Positions 4,232 through 63,102 of a stretch of DNA of 64,000 nt are shown here, piece after piece (positions within the stretch are counted from its first letter, which is position 1; each line of letters starts with the position of its first letter). A model generated the notes under the pieces. The model was not told the origin of the DNA. It saw only the letters and a program-made list of their open reading frames with translations, and ran no database searches. This stretch comes from Escherichia coli (GTDB lineage: Bacteria; Pseudomonadota; Gammaproteobacteria; Enterobacterales; Enterobacteriaceae), in the NCBI RefSeq assembly GCF_036507355.1, contig NZ_AP027877.1. One strand, written 5' to 3'. The translations under genes were made by a program, and so were the position numbers.

Positions 4232-5098
4232 ATGGCCGAAAAAAAACAGTGGCATGAAACGCTACACGACCAGTTTGGGCAGTACTTTGCGGTAGATAAC
4301 GTTCTGTATCATGAAAAGACCGATCACCAGGATCTGATCATTTTTGAGAACGCTGCATTTGGTCGCGTAATGGCGCTGGATGGCGTAGTACAAACCACCG
4401 AGCGCGACGAGTTTATCTATCATGAGATGATGACCCATGTTCCGCTACTGGCCCACGGTCACGCGAAACATGTGCTGATTATCGGCGGCGGCGACGGTGC
4501 CATGCTGCGTGAAGTAACCCGACATAAAAACGTTGAGTCAATCACGATGGTGGAAATCGATGCGGGTGTCGTGTCGTTCTGCCGTCAGTATCTACCCAAC
4601 CATAACGCCGGTAGCTACGACGATCCGCGCTTTAAGCTGGTGATCGACGATGGCGTCAATTTCGTTAATCAAACCAGCCAGACCTTTGATGTCATTATCT
4701 CCGACTGCACCGATCCTATCGGTCCCGGCGAAAGCCTTTTCACTTCGGCATTTTATGAAGGCTGCAAACGTTGCCTGAATCCTGGCGGTATCTTCGTCGC
4801 ACAAAACGGCGTCTGCTTTTTACAGCAGGAAGAAGCCATCGACAGCCATCGCAAACTCAGCCATTACTTCAGCGACGTTGGCTTTTATCAGGCGGCGATC
4901 CCGACCTATTACGGCGGTATCATGACTTTTGCATGGGCGACAGATAACGACGCCTTACGCCATCTCTCAACCGAAATTATTCAGGCGCGTTTTCTCGCCT
5001 CTGGCCTGAAATGCCGTTATTACAATCCGGCAGTCCATACGGCAGCTTTTGCCTTACCCCAGTATCTGCAAGACGCACTGGCTTCACAGCCGTCCTAA
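4232..5098 (+). CDS. speE: Spermidine synthase (288 aa)
   Basis: Full-length [43 protein letters not shown]...; matches SpeE. Confidence 0.97.
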
Positions 5099-5113
5099 GG
5101 AGAAGATAAGAAA

Positions 5114-5908
5114 TTGAAAAAACTGAAACTGCATGGCTTTAATAATCTGACCAAAAGTCTGAGTTTTTGTATTTACGATATCTGCTACGCCAAAACTGCC
5201 GAAGAGCGCGACGGTTATATTGCTTATATCGATGAACTCTATAATGCCAACCGTCTGACCGAAATCCTGTCAGAAACCTGTTCCATTATCGGGGCTAATA
5301 TTCTTAACATCGCCCGCCAGGATTACGAACCACAGGGTGCCAGCGTCACTATTCTGGTGAGTGAAGAACCGGTTGACCCGAAACTTATCGACAAAACAGA
5401 ACACCCCGGCCCACTGCCAGAAACGGTCGTTGCCCATCTCGATAAAAGTCATATTTGCGTACATACCTACCCGGAAAGTCATCCTGAAGGCGGTTTATGT
5501 ACCTTCCGCGCCGATATTGAAGTCTCTACCTGCGGCGTGATTTCTCCGCTGAAGGCGCTGAATTACCTGATCCACCAGCTTGAGTCCGATATCGTAACCA
5601 TTGATTATCGCGTGCGCGGTTTTACCCGCGACATTAACGGTATGAAGCACTTTATCGACCATGAGATTAATTCGATTCAGAACTTTATGTCTGACGATAT
5701 GAAGGCGCTGTATGACATGGTGGATGTAAACGTCTATCAGGAAAATATCTTCCATACCAAGATGTTGCTTAAAGAGTTCGACCTTAAGCACTACATGTTC
5801 CACACCAAACCGGAAGATTTAACCGACAGCGAGCGCCAGGAAATTACCGCTGCGCTGTGGAAAGAAATGCGCGAGATTTATTACGGGCGCAATATGCCAG
5901 CTGTTTAA
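5114..5908 (+). CDS. speD: S-adenosylmethionine decarboxylase proenzyme (264 aa), TTG start
   Basis: ORF begins at TTG 5114-5116, preceded by AAGGAGA RBS in the speE stop region; [26 protein letters not shown]... matches SpeD. Confidence 0.95.
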
Positions 5909-6482: not shown

Positions 6483-9080
6483 TTAAACTGCAGTCTGGAA
6501 AATCACCCCATCGGCTTTCTCGGTGTACTGAGAAAGCTGGTTGAAGTTCAGATAACGGTAAGTATCAACGGCTGTTTTATCTACCTGCGCCACGTAGGTC
6601 TGGTACTCTTCCGGCGTCGGCAGTTTGCCAATCAGCGCCGCAACAGCAGCCAGTTCCGCAGAAGCCAGGAAGACGTTTGCACCAGTACCCAGACGGTTCG
6701 GGAAGTTACGGGTAGAGGTGGAAACCACCGTCGCACCGTCTGCTACACGCGCCTGGTTACCCATACACAGGGAACAGCCAGGGATCTCGATACGCGCACC
6801 ACTCTTACCGAAGACGCTGTAGTAGCCTTCTTCGGTCAACTGTGCGGCGTCCATACGGGTTGGCGGTGCCACCCACAGGCGGGTCGGCAACTGGCCTTTA
6901 TGCGCATCCAGCAGTTTACCCGCAGCACGGAAGTGACCGATGTTGGTCATGCAGGAACCGATAAACACTTCGTCGATCTTCTCACCCTGTACCGCAGACA
7001 GCGGACGCGCGTCATCCGGGTCGTTCGGAGCACACAGGATTGGCTCTTTAATATCCGCCAGATCGATGTCGATCACTGCCGCGTATTCCGCATCTGCATC
7101 GGCTTCCAGCAGCTCAGGATTCGCCAGCCATTTTTCCATGCCCTGAATACGACGTTCCAGGGTGCGACGATCGCCGTAACCTTCCGCGATCATCCACTTC
7201 AGCAGGACGATGTTGGAGTTCAGGTATTCGATGATCGGTTCTTTGTTCAGCTTGATGGTACAACCGGCAGCAGAACGCTCGGCGGACGCATCGGTCAGTT
7301 CAAATGCCTGCTCAACTTTCAGATCCGGCAGACCTTCAATTTCCAGAATGCGACCTGAGAAGATGTTTTTCTTGCCTTTCTTCTCAACGGTCAGCAGACC
7401 TTGTTTGATCGCATACAGCGGAATAGCGTGTACCAGATCGCGCAGGGTGATGCCCGGCTGCATTTTGCCTTTGAAGCGCACCAGAACGGATTCCGGCATA
7501 TCCAGCGGCATTACGCCTGTTGCGGCTGCAAATGCCACCAGACCAGAACCCGCCGGGAAAGAGATACCGATCGGGAAACGGGTATGGGAGTCACCACCGG
7601 TACCGACGGTATCCGGCAGCAGCATACGGTTCAGCCAGGAGTGGATTACGCCGTCACCCGGACGCAGCGACACACCGCCACGGTTCATAATGAAGTCCGG
7701 CAGCGTGTGGTGCGTGTTCACGTCAACTGGCTTCGGATACGCCGCGGTGTGGCAGAAAGACTGCATCACCAGGTCAGCCGAGAAGCCCAGGCACGCCAGG
7801 TCTTTCAGTTCATCACGGGTCATCGGGCCTGTGGTGTCCTGAGAGCCTACAGAAGTCATTTTCGGTTCACAGTACGCGCCCGGACGAATGCCTTTCACGC
7901 CACAGGCACGGCCTACCATTTTCTGCGCCAGCGAGAAGCCGCGATCGCTCTCAGCGACATCTTTCGCCTGACGGAACACATCACTGTGCGGCAGACCAAG
8001 TGCTTCACGCGCTTTGGTGGTCAGGCCACGCCCGATAATCAGCGGAATACGGCCGCCAGCACGCACTTCATCAATCAGCACGTCGGTTTTCAGTTCGAAG
8101 GTCGCCAGCAGTTCGCCTGTTTCGTGGTTACGCACTTCACCTTTGTACGGGTAAACGTCAATCACGTCGCCCATGTTCAGGTTAGAGACGTCGACTTCGA
8201 TTGGCAGTGCACCCGCGTCTTCCATCGTGTTAAAGAAGATGGGTGCAATTTTACCGCCGAGGCACAAACCACCGCCGCGTTTGTTCGGCACATGTGGAAT
8301 ATCATCGCCCATAAACCACAGAACGGAGTTCGTGGCGGATTTACGCGAAGAACCCGTACCCACAACGTCACCGACGTACGCCAGCGGGAAACCTTTCTGT
8401 TGCAGAGCTTCGATTTGCTTGATCGGACCAACAACACCAGGCTGGTCTGGCTCAATACCTTCACGGGCGTTTTTCAGCATCGCCAGCGCGTGCAGTGGGA
8501 TATCCGGGCGCGACCACGCATCCGGTGCCGGAGAAAGGTCATCGGTGTTGGTTTCGCCAGTGACTTTGAAGACGGTAACGGTCAGTTTTTCAGCCAGCGC
8601 CGGGCGATTCAGGAACCATTCGGCATCCGCCCAGGACTGCATTACCTGCTTCGCATATTCGTTGCCTGCTTTCGCTTTCTCTTCTACGTCATAGAAGTTA
8701 TCGAACATCAGCAGCGTGTGAGAAAGTGCTTTGGCAGCGATCGGTGCCAGTTTGGCATCATCCAGCGCGTCGATCAGCGGATGAATGTTGTAACCACCCT
8801 GCATGGTGCCCAGCAGTTCGATGGCTTTTTCCGGAGTCAGCAGTGGGGATTTGGCTTCACCTTTCGCGACAGCAGCCAGGAAGCCTGCTTTGACATAGGC
8901 GGCTTCATCGACGCCAGGGGGAACACGGTTGGTTAATAGATCTAACAGGAATTCTTCTTCGCCCGCGGGCGGGTTTTTCAGCAGCTCTACAAGTGCGGCC
9001 ATTTGGTTTGCATCCAGGGGTTTGGGCGCAATCCCCTCAGCGGCACGCTCAGCTACGTGCTTACGGTATTCTTCTAGCAC
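6483..9080 (-). CDS. acnB: Aconitate hydratase B / 2-methylisocitrate dehydratase (865 aa), GTG start
   Basis: ORF 6483..9233; start placed at the GTG (revcomp of 9078-9080) giving (M)[21 protein letters not shown]..., with GAGGAG RBS upstream; length matches AcnB. Confidence 0.96.
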
Positions 9081-9434
9081 GACGGTTCTCCTCGCTCTCA
9101 TTGTCATAGTGCGGCAGGCGATTCTCTTCACGCTCCTGTGAGACAGCAGTTTGTAGGGTAAATGCCCAGTACCGCAACGGGCAGAATAGCAGGATTTTGA
9201 CGATGTGTTAATCTGTTTACAAAAAAGCAACATAAAAAAGTGGCTGAATCGTTAAGGATGGTCTAGAGATTGTTTCCCTCCGTAAAAACTTCGTTAATTC
9301 GCATAGTGATAATCACCTTTCTCAACGAATCCCAAGATTAGTCAAAATTTAAACTACCGCCTCTTTATACTCAGATTTACAGCACCTGCGGGTGGCAGTT
9401 CGCCGACCATTGCGATTTCCTTGAGATCCGAATT

Positions 9435-10435: not shown

Positions 10436-10470
10436 TGAATCGCCACGGGTTTAACAGACACCTCAGAGTC
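10436..10470 (+). repeat. IS left terminal inverted repeat (IRL)
   Basis: TGAATCGCCACGGGTTTAACAGACACCTCAGAGTC; pairs with the reverse complement of 11630-11664. Confidence 0.85.
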
Positions 10471-10498
10471 ATTTAAGATGGCTTAAAGAGAGGTGCCC

Positions 10499-10777
10499 AT
10501 GAGCGGTAAGCGTTATCCCGAAGAGTTTAAAATTGAAGCAGTCAAACAGGTTGTTGATCGCGGTTATTCTGTTGCCAGCGTTGCAACACGTCTCGATATC
10601 ACCACCCACAGCCTTTACGCCTGGATAAAGAAGTACGGTCCGGATTCTTCCGCTAATAAAGAACAGTCAGATGCTCAGGCCGAGATCCGCCGTCTCCAGA
10701 AAGAGCTGAAGCGGGTTACCGACGAACGGGACATATTAAAAAAAGCCGCGGCGTACTTCGCAAAGCTGTCCGACTGA
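10499..10777 (+). CDS. IS3-family transposase OrfA (helix-turn-helix / leucine-zipper part)
   Basis: ATG at 10499 with RBS AGAGAGG; MSGKRYPEEFKIEAVKQVVDRGYSVASVATRL...ERDILKKAAAYFAKLSD, typical IS3-family OrfA. Confidence 0.88.
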   Translation: MSGKRYPEEFKIEAVKQVVDRGYSVASVATRLDITTHSLYAWIKKYGPDSSANKEQSDAQAEIRRLQKELKRVTDERDILKKAAAYFAKLSD

Positions 10778-20261: not shown

Positions 20262-21632
20262 ATGGAAGGTCAACAGCACGGCGAGCAGCTAAAGCGCGGC
20301 CTTAAAAACCGCCATATTCAGCTTATCGCGCTGGGTGGCGCGATAGGGACAGGGCTATTCCTGGGTAGCGCCTCCGTAATACAGTCCGCAGGGCCAGGGA
20401 TTATCCTGGGTTACGCCATTGCTGGTTTTATCGCCTTTCTGATCATGCGTCAGCTGGGTGAAATGGTGGTCGAAGAACCTGTCGCAGGCTCCTTTAGCCA
20501 CTTTGCTTATAAATACTGGGGCAGCTTTGCTGGCTTCGCTTCTGGCTGGAACTACTGGGTACTGTACGTTTTAGTTGCCATGGCAGAGCTGACTGCTGTG
20601 GGTAAATACATTCAGTTCTGGTATCCGGAAATCCCAACCTGGGTTTCTGCCGCCGTGTTCTTTGTGGTGATCAACGCCATCAACCTGACAAACGTAAAAG
20701 TGTTTGGTGAGATGGAGTTCTGGTTTGCCATTATCAAAGTTATCGCAGTGGTAGCGATGATCATCTTCGGCGGCTGGCTGCTATTCAGTGGCAACGGCGG
20801 CCCGCAGGCGACCGTTAGCAACCTGTGGGATCAAGGTGGTTTCCTGCCGCACGGCTTCACCGGGCTGGTGATGATGATGGCGATTATCATGTTCTCGTTC
20901 GGTGGTCTGGAACTGGTGGGGATCACCGCAGCAGAAGCTGATAACCCGGAGCAAAGCATCCCGAAAGCGACCAACCAGGTTATTTACCGCATCCTGATTT
21001 TCTATATTGGTTCGTTAGCCGTTCTGCTCTCACTGATGCCGTGGACCCGCGTTACCGCCGATACCAGTCCGTTTGTGCTGATCTTCCACGAGTTAGGCGA
21101 TACCTTTGTGGCGAATGCGCTGAACATCGTGGTACTGACTGCGGCGCTCTCCGTGTACAACAGCTGCGTATATTGCAACAGCCGTATGCTGTTTGGTCTG
21201 GCACAACAGGGTAACGCGCCAAAAGCGCTGGCGTCTGTCGATAAACGCGGCGTACCGGTTAACACCATTCTGGTGTCTGCACTGGTAACGGCATTGTGCG
21301 TACTGATTAACTATCTTGCTCCGGAATCCGCATTTGGCCTGTTAATGGCGCTGGTGGTATCTGCACTGGTGATCAACTGGGCGATGATTAGCCTGGCGCA
21401 TATGAAATTCCGTCGCGCCAAGCAGGAACAAGGCGTGGTAACTCGCTTCCCTGCTCTGCTTTATCCGCTGGGTAACTGGATCTGCCTGCTGTTTATGGCG
21501 GCGGTACTGGTGATTATGCTGATGACCCCAGGAATGGCGATTTCGGTATACCTGATCCCGGTATGGCTGATCGTGTTAGGTATCGGCTATCTGTTTAAAG
21601 AGAAAACCGCCAAAGCCGTAAAAGCGCATTAA
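20262..21632 (+). CDS. aroP: Aromatic amino acid:H+ symporter (APC family)
   Basis: ORF MEGQQHGEQLKRGLKNRHIQLIALGGAIGTGLF...; full-length match to AroP. The codon immediately upstream is ATA. Confidence 0.95.
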   Translation: MEGQQHGEQLKRGLKNRHIQLIALGGAIGTGLFLGSASVIQSAGPGIILGYAIAGFIAFLIMRQLGEMVVEEPVAGSFSHFAYKYWGSFAGFASGWNYWVLYVLVAMAELTAVGKYIQFWYPEIPTWVSAAVFFVVINAINLTNVKVFGEMEFWFAIIKVIAVVAMIIFGGWLLFSGNGGPQATVSNLWDQGGFLPHGFTGLVMMMAIIMFSFGGLELVGITAAEADNPEQSIPKATNQVIYRILIFYIGSLAVLLSLMPWTRVTADTSPFVLIFHELGDTFVANALNIVVLTAALSVYNSCVYCNSRMLFGLAQQGNAPKALASVDKRGVPVNTILVSALVTALCVLINYLAPESAFGLLMALVVSALVINWAMISLAHMKFRRAKQEQGVVTRFPALLYPLGNWICLLFMAAVLVIMLMTPGMAISVYLIPVWLIVLGIGYLFKEKTAKAVKAH

Positions 21633-33475: not shown

Positions 33476-34195
<720 letters not shown>

Positions 34196-34217
34196 TTATA
34201 CGACAGTATAAATGTCG

Positions 34218-47042: not shown

Positions 47043-48526
47043 GCAATCACCCCCAGCAGACGCGCCACCGTGACGCGATCGGAGTAGTCCAGACGCTGAT
47101 TGCCAACAATCTGGTAATCTTCATGGCCTTTGCCCGCGACCAGCACCACATCGTTCTCTTTAGCCTGCATAACGGCGCAAGTCACCGCTTCAGCACGGCC
47201 TTCCATCACTTTGGCATGTCCGGCATCTAACATTCCCGCCAGAATATCGTTGATGATGGCACGCGGTTCTTCGGTACGCGGGTTATCGTCCGTCACCACC
47301 GCCACGTCAGCAAACTCTTCGGCAATTGCGCCCATCAGTGGACGCTTACCTTTATCGCGATCGCCACCACAGCCAAAGACACACCACAGCTTGCCCGCAC
47401 AGTGCAGACGCGCCGCCTGTAAGGCTTTTTCCAGTGCATCCGGCGTATGCGCGTAATCCACCACCACCGTCGGTTTGCCTGGCGCAGTGAACACTTCCAT
47501 ACGTCCGCAAACCGGTTGCAGACGCGCGGCGGTTTTCAACAGATCAGCCAATGGATAGCCGAGTGCCAACAGTGTCGCCAGCGCGAGCAGCAGGTTGCTG
47601 ACGTTAAAAGCGCCCATCAGATGGCTTTCAATTTCGCCATCGCCCCAACTTGAGCTAAAGCGAATCGTCGCACCGCTGTCGTGATAGTTCACGTCGATCG
47701 CTTTTAACCAGCGTCCGTGACAGTTCGGATTGATATGATCTTCCATTGATACCGCAACCGCGTCCGGCAGTTTTGCCAGCCAGCGGCGGCCCACTTCATC
47801 GTCGGCGTTAATAATCGCCTGACCGCAATGATGTTCAGAATAAAGCAGCCATTTCGCAGCTTCGTAGTGTTCCATATCACCATGATAATCAAGGTGATCG
47901 CGGCTTAAGTTGGTAAAGACCGACGCTGCAAATTTCAATGCCGCCACACGGTGCTGTACCAGCCCGTGGGAGGAAACTTCCATTGCGCAAAAAGTCGCGC
48001 CCTGATCCACCAGCCCCGCCAGCTCGTGCTGAACATCGACTGCGGAACCGGTAGTATTTTCTGTCGGGATCACTTTCCCAAGCAGACCGTTACCAACGGT
48101 GCCCATTACCGCGCTGGTTTCGCCAAGCAGTTGGCTCCACTGCGCCAGCAGCTGGGTCGTCGTGGTTTTGCCGTTGGTGCCCGTTACGCCCACGAGACGT
48201 AAATTGTCAGAGGGTTCATGGTAAAAGCGGCCCGCCAGTGCAGATAAACGCTCGTTGAGCTGGCTGAGATAGATGACCGGTACGCCGTGCATTTCACGGA
48301 TTTCACCGTCGGTCGCCTCATCTTTCGCCTCTGCAATAATGGCAGCCACACCTTGCGCTATCGCCTGCGGGATATATCGACGCCCGTCCGCCTGATGACC
48401 TACTACAGCTACAAAGAGATCGCCCGCCGCAGCCACACGGCTGTCGAGTGTCATCTCTCGCAGTGCTCGCGAAGGTGCGTCTGGCACCCACGGAGCAAGA
48501 AGGTCGCGCAAATTACGATCTGCCAC
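47039..48526 (-). CDS. murE: UDP-MurNAc-L-Ala-D-Glu--meso-diaminopimelate ligase (495 aa)
   Basis: [60 protein letters not shown]... Confidence 0.97.
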
Positions 48527-52659: not shown

Positions 52660-53664
52660 TTAGCTACGGCTGAGCACACCGCGGCGATAGAGATTACGTT
52701 TAATGCGCGTTAAACCAGGTTTTGGCTTACGCGGTTCGTCCAGGCTTGCCAGGACAATCTCCAGCACACGCTCTGCGACATCGCGGTGACGTTGAGCCAC
52801 TGCCAGCACCGGGCACTGTAAGAAGTCGAGCAGTTCGTTATCGCCAAAGGTGGCAATTGCCAGGTCAGAAGGCAGTTTACCATCGCGACGTAGCGTGACA
52901 TCCATCACCCCTTGCAACAACGCAAACGACGTTGTGAACAGCGCCTGCGGCATCGGATGCGTTTCCAGCCATTTTTCGAATAACTGGGCAGCCGCCTCCC
53001 GCTCATAGCTGTTGGCATACAGAAAATGCACTTCGCGCGGATCATCTTTCCAGGCAGTACGGAAACCTTGTTCACGCAGGAAGCTGACAGAAAGCTCCGG
53101 CAGCGCGCCAAGATAAAGCACCGTCTCGGCGGGAAACTTACGTAACTCTTCCGCCAGCATTTCGGCATCATCCTGATCGGCACCAACCACGCTGGTAAAG
53201 TGTTCACGATCGAGGGCGCGGTCCAGCGCGACAATCGGGAACGGGTCGTTAGCCCAGCGTTGATAAAAAGGATGCTCAGGAGGCAACGACGTCGAAACAA
53301 TAATGGCATCGACCTGACGCTGTAAAAGGTGCTCAATACAGCGCATTTCGTTGTCTGGCTGATCTTCTGAGCAGGCAATCAGCAGTTGATAACCCCGTTG
53401 CCGCGCCTGGCGTTCAAGATAGTTAGCGATGCGGGTATAGCTGGTGTTCTCCAGATCGGGGATCACAAGACCAATAGAACGTGTGCGTCCAGCACGAAGC
53501 CCAGCTGCCACGGCGTTCGGGTGGTAATTGTGCTCACGCACGACAGCCATGACTTTTTCAACGGTTTTGTCGCTCACACGGTATTGCTTCGCTTTGCCGT
53601 TAATAACATAGCTTGCAGTGGTCCGCGACACTCCCGCCAGCCGAGCGATTTCATCCAGTTTCAC
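52660..53664 (-). CDS. cra: Catabolite repressor/activator Cra (FruR), LacI family (334 aa)
   Basis: [60 protein letters not shown]... Confidence 0.96.
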
Positions 53665-56062: not shown

Positions 56063-56379
56063 GGCCTGCCTCACTGTTTGACGGAAAAAATGTGTAAAAC
56101 ACATTAACCGTCCGATCTTGCTTAAGCAATTGGTAGCCAGAGACATAAACGCAGGGTAATAAGAATAAACAGGAGGAAAGGTGAAAAGAAACGATAAAAT
56201 CATCCATTACGAAGGATTAAAATGATAATAAATCGGCTGAATCCCACAACTTACAGCAATTTCTCTATTTTTTTAATTAATCCTAAAATAGAGAGCCTAC
56301 ACATTCAGAATAAAATTCTACATTCAATAAAAAATGCAGAATAAACCAGACATTGATGTCTGACCTATTCTGCATTCAG

Positions 56380-60825: not shown

Positions 60826-62842
<2,017 letters not shown>

Positions 62843-62875
62843 TTTGTACACCGTCCGGTACTCAATCGCCAAAAA

Positions 62876-63102
62876 GAAAAAAGCCAGCAGATAATCACTG
62901 CTGGCGTGGCGATTAACACCAATACTCAGTCACACATGATGTCCGCAAATCAGTAGTCAGAATGACTCCCCTCCCACTGCATCAGTTCTTCAAGCATGGT
63001 TAATCGTTGTGGGACGCTTAACCAACGCAACCAGCACAACTGCGCTGTCGCGGTAAAATAGTGCTGATAAAACTGACGCATGGGGCACCTCCTTGCTTCA
63101 TC
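62876..63102 (-). ncRNA. sgrS: Small RNA SgrS (glucose-phosphate stress sRNA; dual-function, encodes SgrT); ends approximate
   Basis: Minus strand starts GATGAAGCAAGGAGGTGCCCCATGCGTCAG..., contains the ptsG-pairing seed GAGTATTGGTGT and ends in a terminator hairpin CCAGCAGTGATTATCTGCTGG plus U-tract; sits 67 bp from the divergent sgrR start, as in K-12. Confidence 0.88.
62950..63081 (-). CDS. sgrT: Small protein SgrT (43 aa) encoded within SgrS
   Basis: C-terminal part of ORF 62950..63249: MRQFYQHYFTATAQLCWLRWLSVPQRLTMLEELMQWEGSHSDY, with an AGGAGG RBS upstream. Confidence 0.85.
   Translation of the reverse strand: MRQFYQHYFTATAQLCWLRWLSVPQRLTMLEELMQWEGSHSDY

What the first reader, a model, noticed from the sequence alone, without database searches (positions are those of the whole stretch)
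5114..5116. Non-ATG initiation codons at speD (TTG), acnB (GTG) and secM (GTG)
The homology-supported N-termini of these three genes coincide with TTG at 5114, GTG at 9078-9080 (minus strand) and GTG at 33986-33988 (minus strand), each with a plausible RBS. The ORF track over-extends acnB and secM to upstream ATGs. Relevant for correct annotation and for translation-efficiency interpretation.
Basis: partly seen in the sequence, partly recalled or inferred. Interest (0 to 1): 0.15.

Follow-up and report, generated by a model that had tools for sequence, protein, structure and literature searches.

The report
Known GTG/TTG gene starts confirmed
Three ordinary E. coli genes (speD, acnB, secM) really do start at TTG or GTG instead of ATG, exactly as the curated K-12 annotation already records, so this is correct but routine.

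Summary
The window is an E. coli chromosome segment, the reverse complement of K-12 about 76.5-140.7 kb and 98.2% identical to it. Each coincides with the curated K-12 start and with RefSeq calls in close genomes.

Independent support is strong:
- **Family profiles.** NCBIfam profiles begin at or within two residues of these codons.
- **Ribosome-binding sites.** Shine-Dalgarno pairing is -9.1, -8.9 and -6.5 kcal/mol, against a background mean of -2.35.
- **acnB conservation.** GTG in 77 of 80 gammaproteobacterial loci.
- **speD conservation.** TTG in 16 of 16 loci, with a stop 2-6 codons upstream in 15.
- **secM conservation.** GTG in 6 and TTG in 1 of 7 genera, with a stop directly upstream in two.

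Two corrections:
- The over-long secM ORF begins at a GTG (34159) inside the lpxC terminator hairpin. There is no upstream in-frame ATG.
- The list is incomplete: cra, murE and yabR also start at GTG.

Six non-ATG starts among 55 genes (11%) is not above the usual rate.

Verdict: correct, already known, low interest. One modest lead is that the acnB GUG lies inside an 8-bp complementarity to the sRNA RyhB.

The parts
5114..5116 (+). speD start codon TTG
   Evidence: It equals the K-12 b0120 start. It is the first codon of ORF 5114..5908, 264 aa. TTG is found in 16/16 related loci.
5096..5102 (+). speD Shine-Dalgarno UAAGGAG, overlapping the speE stop codon TAA (5096-5098), which is in the speD frame
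   Evidence: The anti-SD duplex is -9.1 kcal/mol. The sequence was read. AGGAGG or AGGGGG is conserved at this position in the 16 loci.
5114..5908 (+). speD CDS (S-adenosylmethionine decarboxylase proenzyme, 264 aa)
   Evidence: TIGR03331 scores 491 bits, with the profile (1-259) matching residues 3-261. Annotation.
9078..9080 (-). acnB start codon GTG
   Evidence: It equals the K-12 b0118 start. GTG is found in 77/80 loci. Residue 1 of the PDB 1L5J chain aligns here. TIGR00117 profile position 1 aligns here.
9088..9093 (-). acnB Shine-Dalgarno GAGGAG, 7 nt before the GTG
   Evidence: The duplex is -8.9 kcal/mol. GAGGAG or GAGGA is conserved in nearly all 80 loci.
6483..9080 (-). acnB CDS (aconitate hydratase 2, 865 aa)
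9183..9211 (-). acnB promoter-like site (-35 TTAACA, 17 nt spacer, TG-extended -10 TATTCT); implied mRNA 5' end about 9176
   Evidence: Found. A 96-nt 5'UTR is derived from the 2761-nt transcript minus the 67-nt 3'UTR and the 2598-nt ORF (PMC4150767).
9231..9233 (-). Upstream in-frame ATG where the mechanical ORF begins; not the start
   Evidence: Seen. It has no SD (+0.3 kcal/mol). It lies upstream of the promoter. The extension is not conserved.
9099..9107 (-). Two in-frame ATGs (9107-9105 and 9101-9099) within the acnB 5'UTR; not starts
   Evidence: They have no SD (-2.9 and +0.7 kcal/mol). An in-frame upstream ATG of this kind is present in only about 15 of 77 loci. In Citrobacter, Kluyvera, Serratia and Yersinia these ATGs are out of frame or absent, or a nearer in-frame stop intervenes.
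33986..33988 (-). secM start codon GTG
   Evidence: It equals the K-12 b0097 start and the RefSeq call in the closest genome. The position is GTG in 6 and TTG in 1 of 7 genera. PDB 9VVI SecM residue 2 aligns with the codon after this GTG, so residue 1 falls on it.
33996..34002 (-). secM weak Shine-Dalgarno-like GGGAUGG, 7 nt before the GTG
   Evidence: The duplex is -6.5 kcal/mol, within the top 7% of background. Five of the six other genera have GGUGG near the same place; Raoultella has GGUAA.
33476..33988 (-). secM CDS (170 aa, with the arrest motif [17 protein letters not shown])
   Evidence: NF002799 scores 228 bits. The precomputed Pfam domain on the homologs is PF06558. Translation.
34142..34197 (-). 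lpxC terminator hairpin plus U-run, containing the GTG (34159-34157) at which the mechanical secM ORF begins
   Evidence: The fold is -24.2 kcal/mol with z = -5.0. The hairpin sequence is conserved across genera. That GTG has no SD (-1.7 kcal/mol).
   Evidence: Mapped from K-12 b0080.
   Evidence: Mapped from K-12 b0085.
   Evidence: Mapped from K-12 b4726.

Best explanation
These are three ordinary Shine-Dalgarno-led bacterial initiation sites that use the near-cognate codons UUG (speD) and GUG (acnB, secM).

From established knowledge: the 30S subunit is positioned by pairing of the SD with the 3' end of 16S rRNA. fMet-tRNAfMet reads the codon with a first-position mismatch under IF3 proofreading, so the protein still begins with fMet. 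Output is lower than from AUG (10-100% of AUG in reporter assays, bioRxiv 10.1101/063800).

Shown here: each codon is the conserved N-terminal boundary of its gene family, has an SD at 7-11 nt, and is kept as a non-AUG codon across genera.

Inferred: the weak codon is selected as a set-point for expression.
- **speD.** The UUG lies 15 nt after the speE stop, and its SD overlaps that stop. Initiation is therefore probably coupled to speE termination and keeps SpeD output low relative to SpeE.
- **secM.** A weak codon plus a weak SD limits ribosome loading on a regulatory leader ORF, whose arrested ribosome controls secA translation.
- **acnB.** The GUG sits inside the region that the sRNA RyhB binds to block 30S binding (PMC4150767).
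For: - **Annotation.** The coordinates equal the curated K-12 starts and RefSeq calls in the closest genomes.
- **Family profiles.** NCBIfam equivalog profiles start at these codons or within 2 residues.
- **SD strength.** SD energies are -9.1, -8.9 and -6.5 kcal/mol against a background mean of -2.35, and rival in-frame candidates are weak or badly spaced.
- **acnB.** GTG occurs in 77/80 loci from Enterobacterales to Vibrio, Aeromonas, Shewanella and Rheinheimera. Many have an in-frame stop 5-10 codons upstream and no other start between. By contrast, 33 fourfold-degenerate sites in the same alignment share their commonest base in only 51% of loci on average, at most 86%.
- **speD.** TTG occurs in 16/16 loci, with a stop 2-6 codons upstream in 15.
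- **secM.** GTG occurs in 6 and TTG in 1 of 7 genera. TAA or TGA lies immediately upstream in Raoultella and Yokenella, and the upstream region carries indels that are not multiples of 3. Most of residues 2-23 (19 of 22) are invariant while their codons vary synonymously.
- **Deposited structures.** The AcnB (1L5J) and SecM (9VVI) chains start at these positions.
- **Ribosome profiling.** The retapamulin paper shows secM with its annotated primary start marked (bioRxiv 10.1101/520783, Fig. S1G legend).
- **Toeprinting.** A toeprint of 30S on the acnB initiation region and its block by RyhB are reported in PMC4150767.
Against: No direct N-terminal peptide or initiation-site data for this strain could be examined. 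The primary papers I recall were not available in the library, so their content rests on my memory. They are Sarker, Rudd & Oliver 2000 for secM, Bradbury et al. 1996 for acnB, and Tabor & Tabor 1987 for speD.

PDB chain sequences follow the annotation and are not independent proof. The 11-nt SD-to-TTG spacing of speD is longer than optimal. The functional reasons for keeping weak codons are inferred, not shown.
Confidence: 0.97

Rival explanations
1. acnB translation starts, at least partly, at the in-frame ATGs 7 or 9 codons upstream (9101, 9107). This would give an N-terminally extended AcnB isoform ([14 protein letters not shown]...).
For: Both ATGs lie inside the inferred 96-nt 5'UTR and are in frame with no intervening stop in this window, in E. 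albertii and in several Enterobacter-like genomes.
Against: Neither has an SD (-2.9 kcal/mol with 15-nt spacing, and +0.7). The frame is not conserved: a stop lies at -7 or -6 codons, or the ATGs are out of frame, in Citrobacter, Kluyvera, Serratia, Yersinia and Photorhabdus. The family profile starts at the GTG. The conserved nucleotides there are better explained as the SD plus the RyhB pairing site.
Confidence: 0.03
2. secM starts at the downstream ATG (33919, Met24). This would give a short classical signal peptide, the older 'gene X' reading as I recall it.
For: An ATG is present at codon 24, followed by a hydrophobic stretch ([13 protein letters not shown]).
Against: Most of residues 2-23 (19 of 22) are invariant across 18 sequences from many genera, while their codons vary at synonymous positions, so this stretch is translated. 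The SD for the ATG is poor (-3.0 kcal/mol, no spacer). The curated annotation and the 2000 revision (title cited) place the start upstream.
Confidence: 0.02
3. The long mechanical ORFs (acnB from ATG 9233, secM from GTG 34159) are the real genes.
For: They are open reading frames without stops, and some automatic gene callers produce long SecM versions of 177-225 aa.
Against: ATG 9233 lies upstream of the acnB promoter and of the mRNA 5' end. GTG 34159 lies inside the lpxC terminator hairpin. The extensions are unalignable between genera. Neither codon has an SD.
Confidence: 0.01

Closest known systems
Curated E. coli K-12 MG1655 starts of speD (b0120, TTG), acnB (b0118, GTG) and secM (b0097, GTG)
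   Same: The codon is identical at the homologous position. The 150-nt start regions are 99.3-100% identical and the protein lengths are the same (264, 865 and 170 aa).
   Different: Strain-level differences only. SecM carries P132S and T170S relative to K-12. Overall the window is 98.2% identical to K-12.
General class of bacterial near-cognate (GUG/UUG) start codons
   Same: The sites are SD-led and read by initiator tRNA. The frequency in the window (6 of 55 genes) is in line with the reported 14% GUG and 3% UUG.
   Different: Nothing unusual, except the depth of conservation of the acnB GUG (77/80 loci across several gammaproteobacterial orders).
sRNA-targeted translation initiation regions (RyhB-acnB; Benjamin & Masse 2014, PMC4150767)
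   Same: RyhB binds the acnB RBS and initiation region and blocks 30S binding. My duplex calculation places the pairing from -21 to +5, including the GUG.
   Different: The link between the identity of the start codon and RyhB pairing is my inference. I did not see it stated in the paper's main text (the pairing figure is supplementary and not held), and it has not been tested.

Membership tests
SD-led near-cognate (GUG/UUG) bacterial start codon | A GTG or TTG in frame at the position where family-wide protein homology begins | tested here: met
   NCBIfam equivalog profiles begin at residue 3 of SpeD, at residue 52 of the long acnB ORF (the GTG codon), and at residue 60 of the long secM ORF (GTG is residue 58). 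tblastn alignments reach query residue 1 in 77/80 acnB loci and 16/16 speD loci.
SD-led near-cognate (GUG/UUG) bacterial start codon | A Shine-Dalgarno sequence at suitable spacing upstream | tested here: met
   The duplexes are -9.1 kcal/mol (11 nt), -8.9 (7 nt) and -6.5 (7 nt), against a background mean of -2.35.
SD-led near-cognate (GUG/UUG) bacterial start codon | No better in-frame start upstream (a stop, or loss of conservation or frame) | tested here: met
   For speD, a stop lies 5 codons upstream between it and the TTG. For acnB and secM, orthologues have stops 1-10 codons upstream and the upstream sequence is unalignable.
SD-led near-cognate (GUG/UUG) bacterial start codon | Direct evidence of initiation at the codon (N-terminal sequence, toeprint, initiation-site profiling) | not testable with these tools
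   Only indirect evidence was available. A toeprint on the acnB initiation region is reported in PMC4150767. The secM primary start is marked in the retapamulin profiling figure legend. The primary N-terminal sequencing papers are not held.
AcnB (TIGR00117, bifunctional aconitate hydratase 2) | Full-length match above the curated cutoff | tested here: met
   1717.5 bits against a cutoff of 1287.2. The N-terminal 99 residues compared (residues 2-100) match PDB 1L5J at all but one position.
SpeD class 1a (TIGR03331, E. coli-type AdoMet decarboxylase) | Full-length match above the curated cutoff | tested here: met
   491.5 bits against a cutoff of 255.8.
SecM (NF002799 / PF06558, secA translation cis-regulator) | Match above the cutoff, location immediately upstream of secA, and the C-terminal arrest motif | tested here: met
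   227.9 bits against a cutoff of 100. secA begins 62 nt downstream of the secM stop. The sequence [17 protein letters not shown] is present and matches the chains in SecM-stalled ribosome structures.

The most novel reading that the evidence does not exclude
The acnB start codon may be held as GUG, rather than drifting to the generally preferred AUG, because it forms the centre of an 8-bp helix with the conserved core of the iron-responsive sRNA RyhB (mRNA GUCGUGCU paired with sRNA AGCACGAC). An AUG there would introduce an A-C mismatch and weaken the predicted duplex from -24.7 to -18.9 kcal/mol. The identity of the start codon would then be constrained by sRNA regulation as well as by initiation efficiency.

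The three loci that lack the GUG (Pasteurellaceae, ATG 2-3 codons upstream) belong to a family that, to my knowledge, has no RyhB.

Against this: loci of the Rheinheimera and Alishewanella type keep GTG although their complementarity to the E. coli RyhB core is near the shuffle level.
Probability: 0.25. Interest if true: 0.35.

Novelty: already known. Interest (0 to 1): 0.08.

Why it matters
The practical value is for annotation. A longest-ORF rule mis-starts acnB by 51 codons and secM by 57 codons, and public gene calls for SecM range from 164 to 225 aa. Fixing these starts matters for signal-peptide prediction and for expression modelling.

Biologically, nothing new is revealed for E. coli. 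The only mildly interesting point is how strictly the weak codons are conserved: acnB GUG in 77/80 loci, speD UUG in 16/16, and secM never AUG in 7 genera. That argues that low initiation efficiency, or in acnB sRNA pairing, is itself under selection.

Tried and rejected
- **Primary literature.** I tried to read the primary papers: Sarker/Rudd/Oliver 2000 (PMC111006), Li et al. 2001 (PMC58508), and Bale & Ealick 2010 (PMC2847442). None is held.
- **Supplements.** No supplement text is held for the retapamulin ribosome-profiling preprint. The Salmonella riboproteogenomics paper's supplements have no occurrence of acnB, speD or secM.
- **Literature searches for speD.** Searches for speD with UUG, or for proenzyme residues, gave nothing relevant.
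- **Solved structures.** No solved structure matches E. coli-type SpeD by sequence.
- **RyhB duplex.** A full-length RyhB-versus-acnB duplex calculation was uninformative, with 12.6% of shuffles doing as well. Only the restricted core calculation was kept.
- **secM promoter and terminator.** The simple promoter/terminator scan found no secM promoter and missed the lpxC terminator because of its long loop. Direct folding showed the hairpin.
- **Enrichment idea.** I considered and rejected the idea that the three codons form a notable cluster or enrichment. Six of 55 genes is at or below expectation.

Full report
**What the window is.** Megablast against complete E. coli genomes and against K-12 shows an E. 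coli chromosome segment. It is collinear with the reverse complement of K-12 MG1655 positions about 76.5-140.7 kb, at 98.2% mean identity. The gene order runs cueO, yacC, speE, speD, yacL, acnB, yacH, lpd, aceF, aceE, pdhR, aroP..., secA, secM, lpxC, the fts/mur cell-division cluster, cra, ilvIH, leuO, leuABCD, sgrR.

**Checking the observation.**
- Reading the sequence confirms TTG at 5114-5116 on the + strand, GTG at 9080-9078 on the - strand, and GTG at 33988-33986 on the - strand.
- I mapped 57 curated K-12 CDS starts onto the window by local alignment of 150-nt start regions; 55 mapped.
- The three codons coincide exactly with the curated starts of speD (b0120, TTG), acnB (b0118, GTG) and secM (b0097, GTG).
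- RefSeq annotation of the closest genomes places the starts at the same bases.
- For secM the over-long ORF (227 aa, 33476..34159) begins at a GTG, and its 57-codon extension has no ATG at all. The phrase 'upstream ATGs' is therefore wrong for secM.
- For speD the ORF list already starts at the TTG.

**Completeness and chance.**
- Six of 55 genes is 11%. The reported figures are 14% GUG and 3% UUG for E. coli genes (bioRxiv 10.1101/063800).
- The window is therefore not enriched: P(X>=6) = 0.92 at p = 0.17.

**Ribosome-binding sites.** I computed anti-SD (ACCUCCUUA) duplex energies for every in-frame ATG, GTG or TTG between the upstream stop and 40 codons into each gene.

| Candidate | Duplex (kcal/mol) | Note |
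|---|---|---|
| speD TTG 5114 | -9.1 | UAAGGAG 5096-5102, 11 nt upstream, overlapping the speE stop |
| acnB GTG 9080 | -8.9 | GAGGAG 9093-9088, 7 nt upstream |
| secM GTG 33988 | -6.5 | GGGAUGG 34002-33996, 7 nt upstream |
| acnB ATG 9233 | +0.3 | rival |
| acnB ATG 9107 | -2.9 | rival, 15-nt spacing |
| acnB ATG 9101 | +0.7 | rival |
| secM GTG 34159 | -1.7 | rival |
| secM GTG 34063 | -3.2 | rival |
| secM ATG 33919 | -3.0 | rival, no spacer |

Random positions in the window average -2.35; 7% reach -6 and 1.3% reach -8.

**Where the alternatives sit.**
- **speD.** No alternative exists. The speE stop TAA (5096-5098) is in the speD frame, 5 codons before the TTG, and one search found no in-frame ATG, GTG or TTG in the 40 codons after the TTG.
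- **acnB.** A promoter-like site (-35 at 9211, extended -10 ending at 9183) predicts a 5' end near 9176. Published transcript dimensions give the same answer: 2761 nt in total with a 67-nt 3'UTR, hence a 96-nt 5'UTR (PMC4150767). ATG 9233 is therefore not on the mRNA.
- **secM.** The GTG at 34159 lies inside the conserved lpxC terminator hairpin (-24.2 kcal/mol, z = -5.0).

**Family profiles.** Curated full-length NCBIfam models begin at these points:
- residue 3 of SpeD (TIGR03331, 491 bits);
- residue 52 of the long acnB ORF, which is the GTG codon (TIGR00117, 1717 bits);
- residue 60 of the long secM ORF, where the GTG is residue 58 (NF002799, 228 bits).

PDB chains for AcnB (1L5J) and SecM (9VVI, 9XWO) also begin at these codons. 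They follow the annotation and are not independent evidence.

**Cross-species evidence: acnB and speD.**
- One scan of the species-representative genome collection with AcnB returned 80 loci, from Escherichia to Vibrio, Aeromonas, Shewanella, Rheinheimera and Pasteurellaceae.
- The codon aligned to AcnB residue 1 is GTG in 77 of 80. The three exceptions are Pasteurellaceae, which have an ATG 2-3 codons upstream.
- Many loci have an in-frame stop 5-10 codons upstream and no other start between. GAGGAG or GAGGA is conserved 6-8 nt upstream.
- The in-frame ATGs at -7 and -9 codons occur in only about 15 loci. In Citrobacter, Kluyvera, Serratia and Yersinia they are out of frame or absent, or a nearer in-frame stop intervenes.
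- As a yardstick, 33 fourfold-degenerate sites in the first 110 codons share their commonest base in only 51% of loci on average, at most 86%. The G of the start codon is therefore under purifying selection rather than simply inherited.
- speD lay within 16 of these loci. All 16 have TTG and none has an alternative start. Fifteen have an in-frame stop 2-6 codons upstream; in the sixteenth the stop is 53 codons upstream. Most have AGGAGG or AGGGGG as the SD.
- For speD the yardstick is weaker: fourfold sites average 64%, and 3 of 35 are fully conserved.

**Cross-species evidence: secM.**
- A protein search found 762 SecM relatives, with called lengths from 164 to 225 aa. Gene callers clearly disagree about this start.
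- In an alignment of 18 sequences, conservation starts abruptly at Ser2. Nineteen of the 22 residues from 2 to 23 are invariant, and the extensions are unrelated between genera.
- DNA from six other genera, aligned with the window, shows GTG at the start in Salmonella, Enterobacter, Citrobacter koseri, Raoultella and Yokenella, and TTG in one unnamed lineage.
- Raoultella and Yokenella have TAA or TGA immediately upstream of the start.
- The upstream region carries indels that are not multiples of three, and the first 23 codons vary at synonymous positions.
- This also excludes the downstream ATG (Met24) as the sole start.
[quoted passage not shown] The paper itself is not held, so what I say of its content is from memory.

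**How it works.**
- Established knowledge: these are standard SD-led initiation sites read by fMet-tRNAfMet at a near-cognate codon under IF3 proofreading. In reporter measurements GUG and UUG yield 10-100% of AUG.
- Shown here: the position, the SD and the conservation of the codons.
- Inferred: the weak codon is a selected expression set-point.
  - speD is probably coupled to speE termination, because the SD overlaps the speE stop and only 15 nt separate the stop from the TTG.
  - For secM, a weak codon and weak SD limit ribosome loading on a regulatory leader ORF.
  - acnB initiation is a known target of RyhB, which blocks 30S toeprinting on its initiation region (PMC4150767).

**A modest lead: RyhB and the acnB GUG.**
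- I took RyhB from the K-12 record. Its single-stranded core (nt 31-62) forms a predicted -24.7 kcal/mol duplex with the acnB mRNA from -21 to +5. Shuffled mRNA gives -14.5 +/- 3.2, and 0.3% of shuffles reach the observed value.
- The duplex contains an 8-bp helix, GUCGUGCU paired with AGCACGAC, that includes the GUG. Replacing GUG by AUG gives -18.9.
- The predicted duplex with the E. coli core covers the GUG in all 77 GUG-bearing loci.
- The energy falls to shuffle level in loci of the Rheinheimera, Alishewanella and some Shewanella types, which nevertheless keep GTG. RyhB pairing therefore cannot be the whole reason.
- I rate this as a possibility (0.25), not a finding.

**Verdict.** All three starts are already in the curated K-12 annotation and in RefSeq. 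Novelty: already known. Interest: low.

Noticed in passing
window 20259-20264 (+): K-12 aroP begins with tandem ATG ATG. In the window the first ATG is ATA, so aroP must start at the second ATG (20262), one codon shorter. The rest of the ORF is intact, with 457 of 458 positions identical.
   Followed up: partly
window 10436-11662: A 1227-bp IS3-family insertion sequence interrupts yacH; it is absent from K-12. The flanks abut K-12 positions 130260 and 130264, consistent with a short target duplication. Copies 99.9% identical occur on other E. coli chromosomes and plasmids.
   Followed up: partly
window 62836-62877: setA is absent. About 40 bp in the window replace 1262 bp of K-12 (77592-78854) between sgrS/sgrT and leuD.
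   Followed up: no
window 53662-53664, 48524-48526, 56181-56183: Three more non-ATG (GTG) starts lie in the same window, by mapping from K-12: cra, murE and the small protein yabR.
   Followed up: partly
window 9054-9101 (-), acnB translation initiation region: The stretch acaatgagagcgaggagaaccgtcGTGctagaagaataccgtaag is conserved almost base for base across Enterobacterales, well beyond coding needs. It is complementary to the RyhB core, including an 8-bp helix over the start codon.
   Followed up: partly
window 33476-33988 (-): SecM differs from K-12 at P132S and T170S. The C-terminal ...QRLS is the form found in the other genera aligned, so K-12's T170 is the unusual state.
   Followed up: no
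window 14044-14075: In the aceF-lpd intergenic region K-12 has about 148 bp where the window has about 30 bp. This is possibly a repetitive extragenic element present only in K-12.
   Followed up: no
window 34020-34045 (-) and loci L086-L091: A block (gctttaatgataagatttgtgcgc) about 40-60 nt upstream of the secM GTG is conserved across seven genera. It is probably the secM promoter -10 region. The simple consensus scan did not report it.
   Followed up: no
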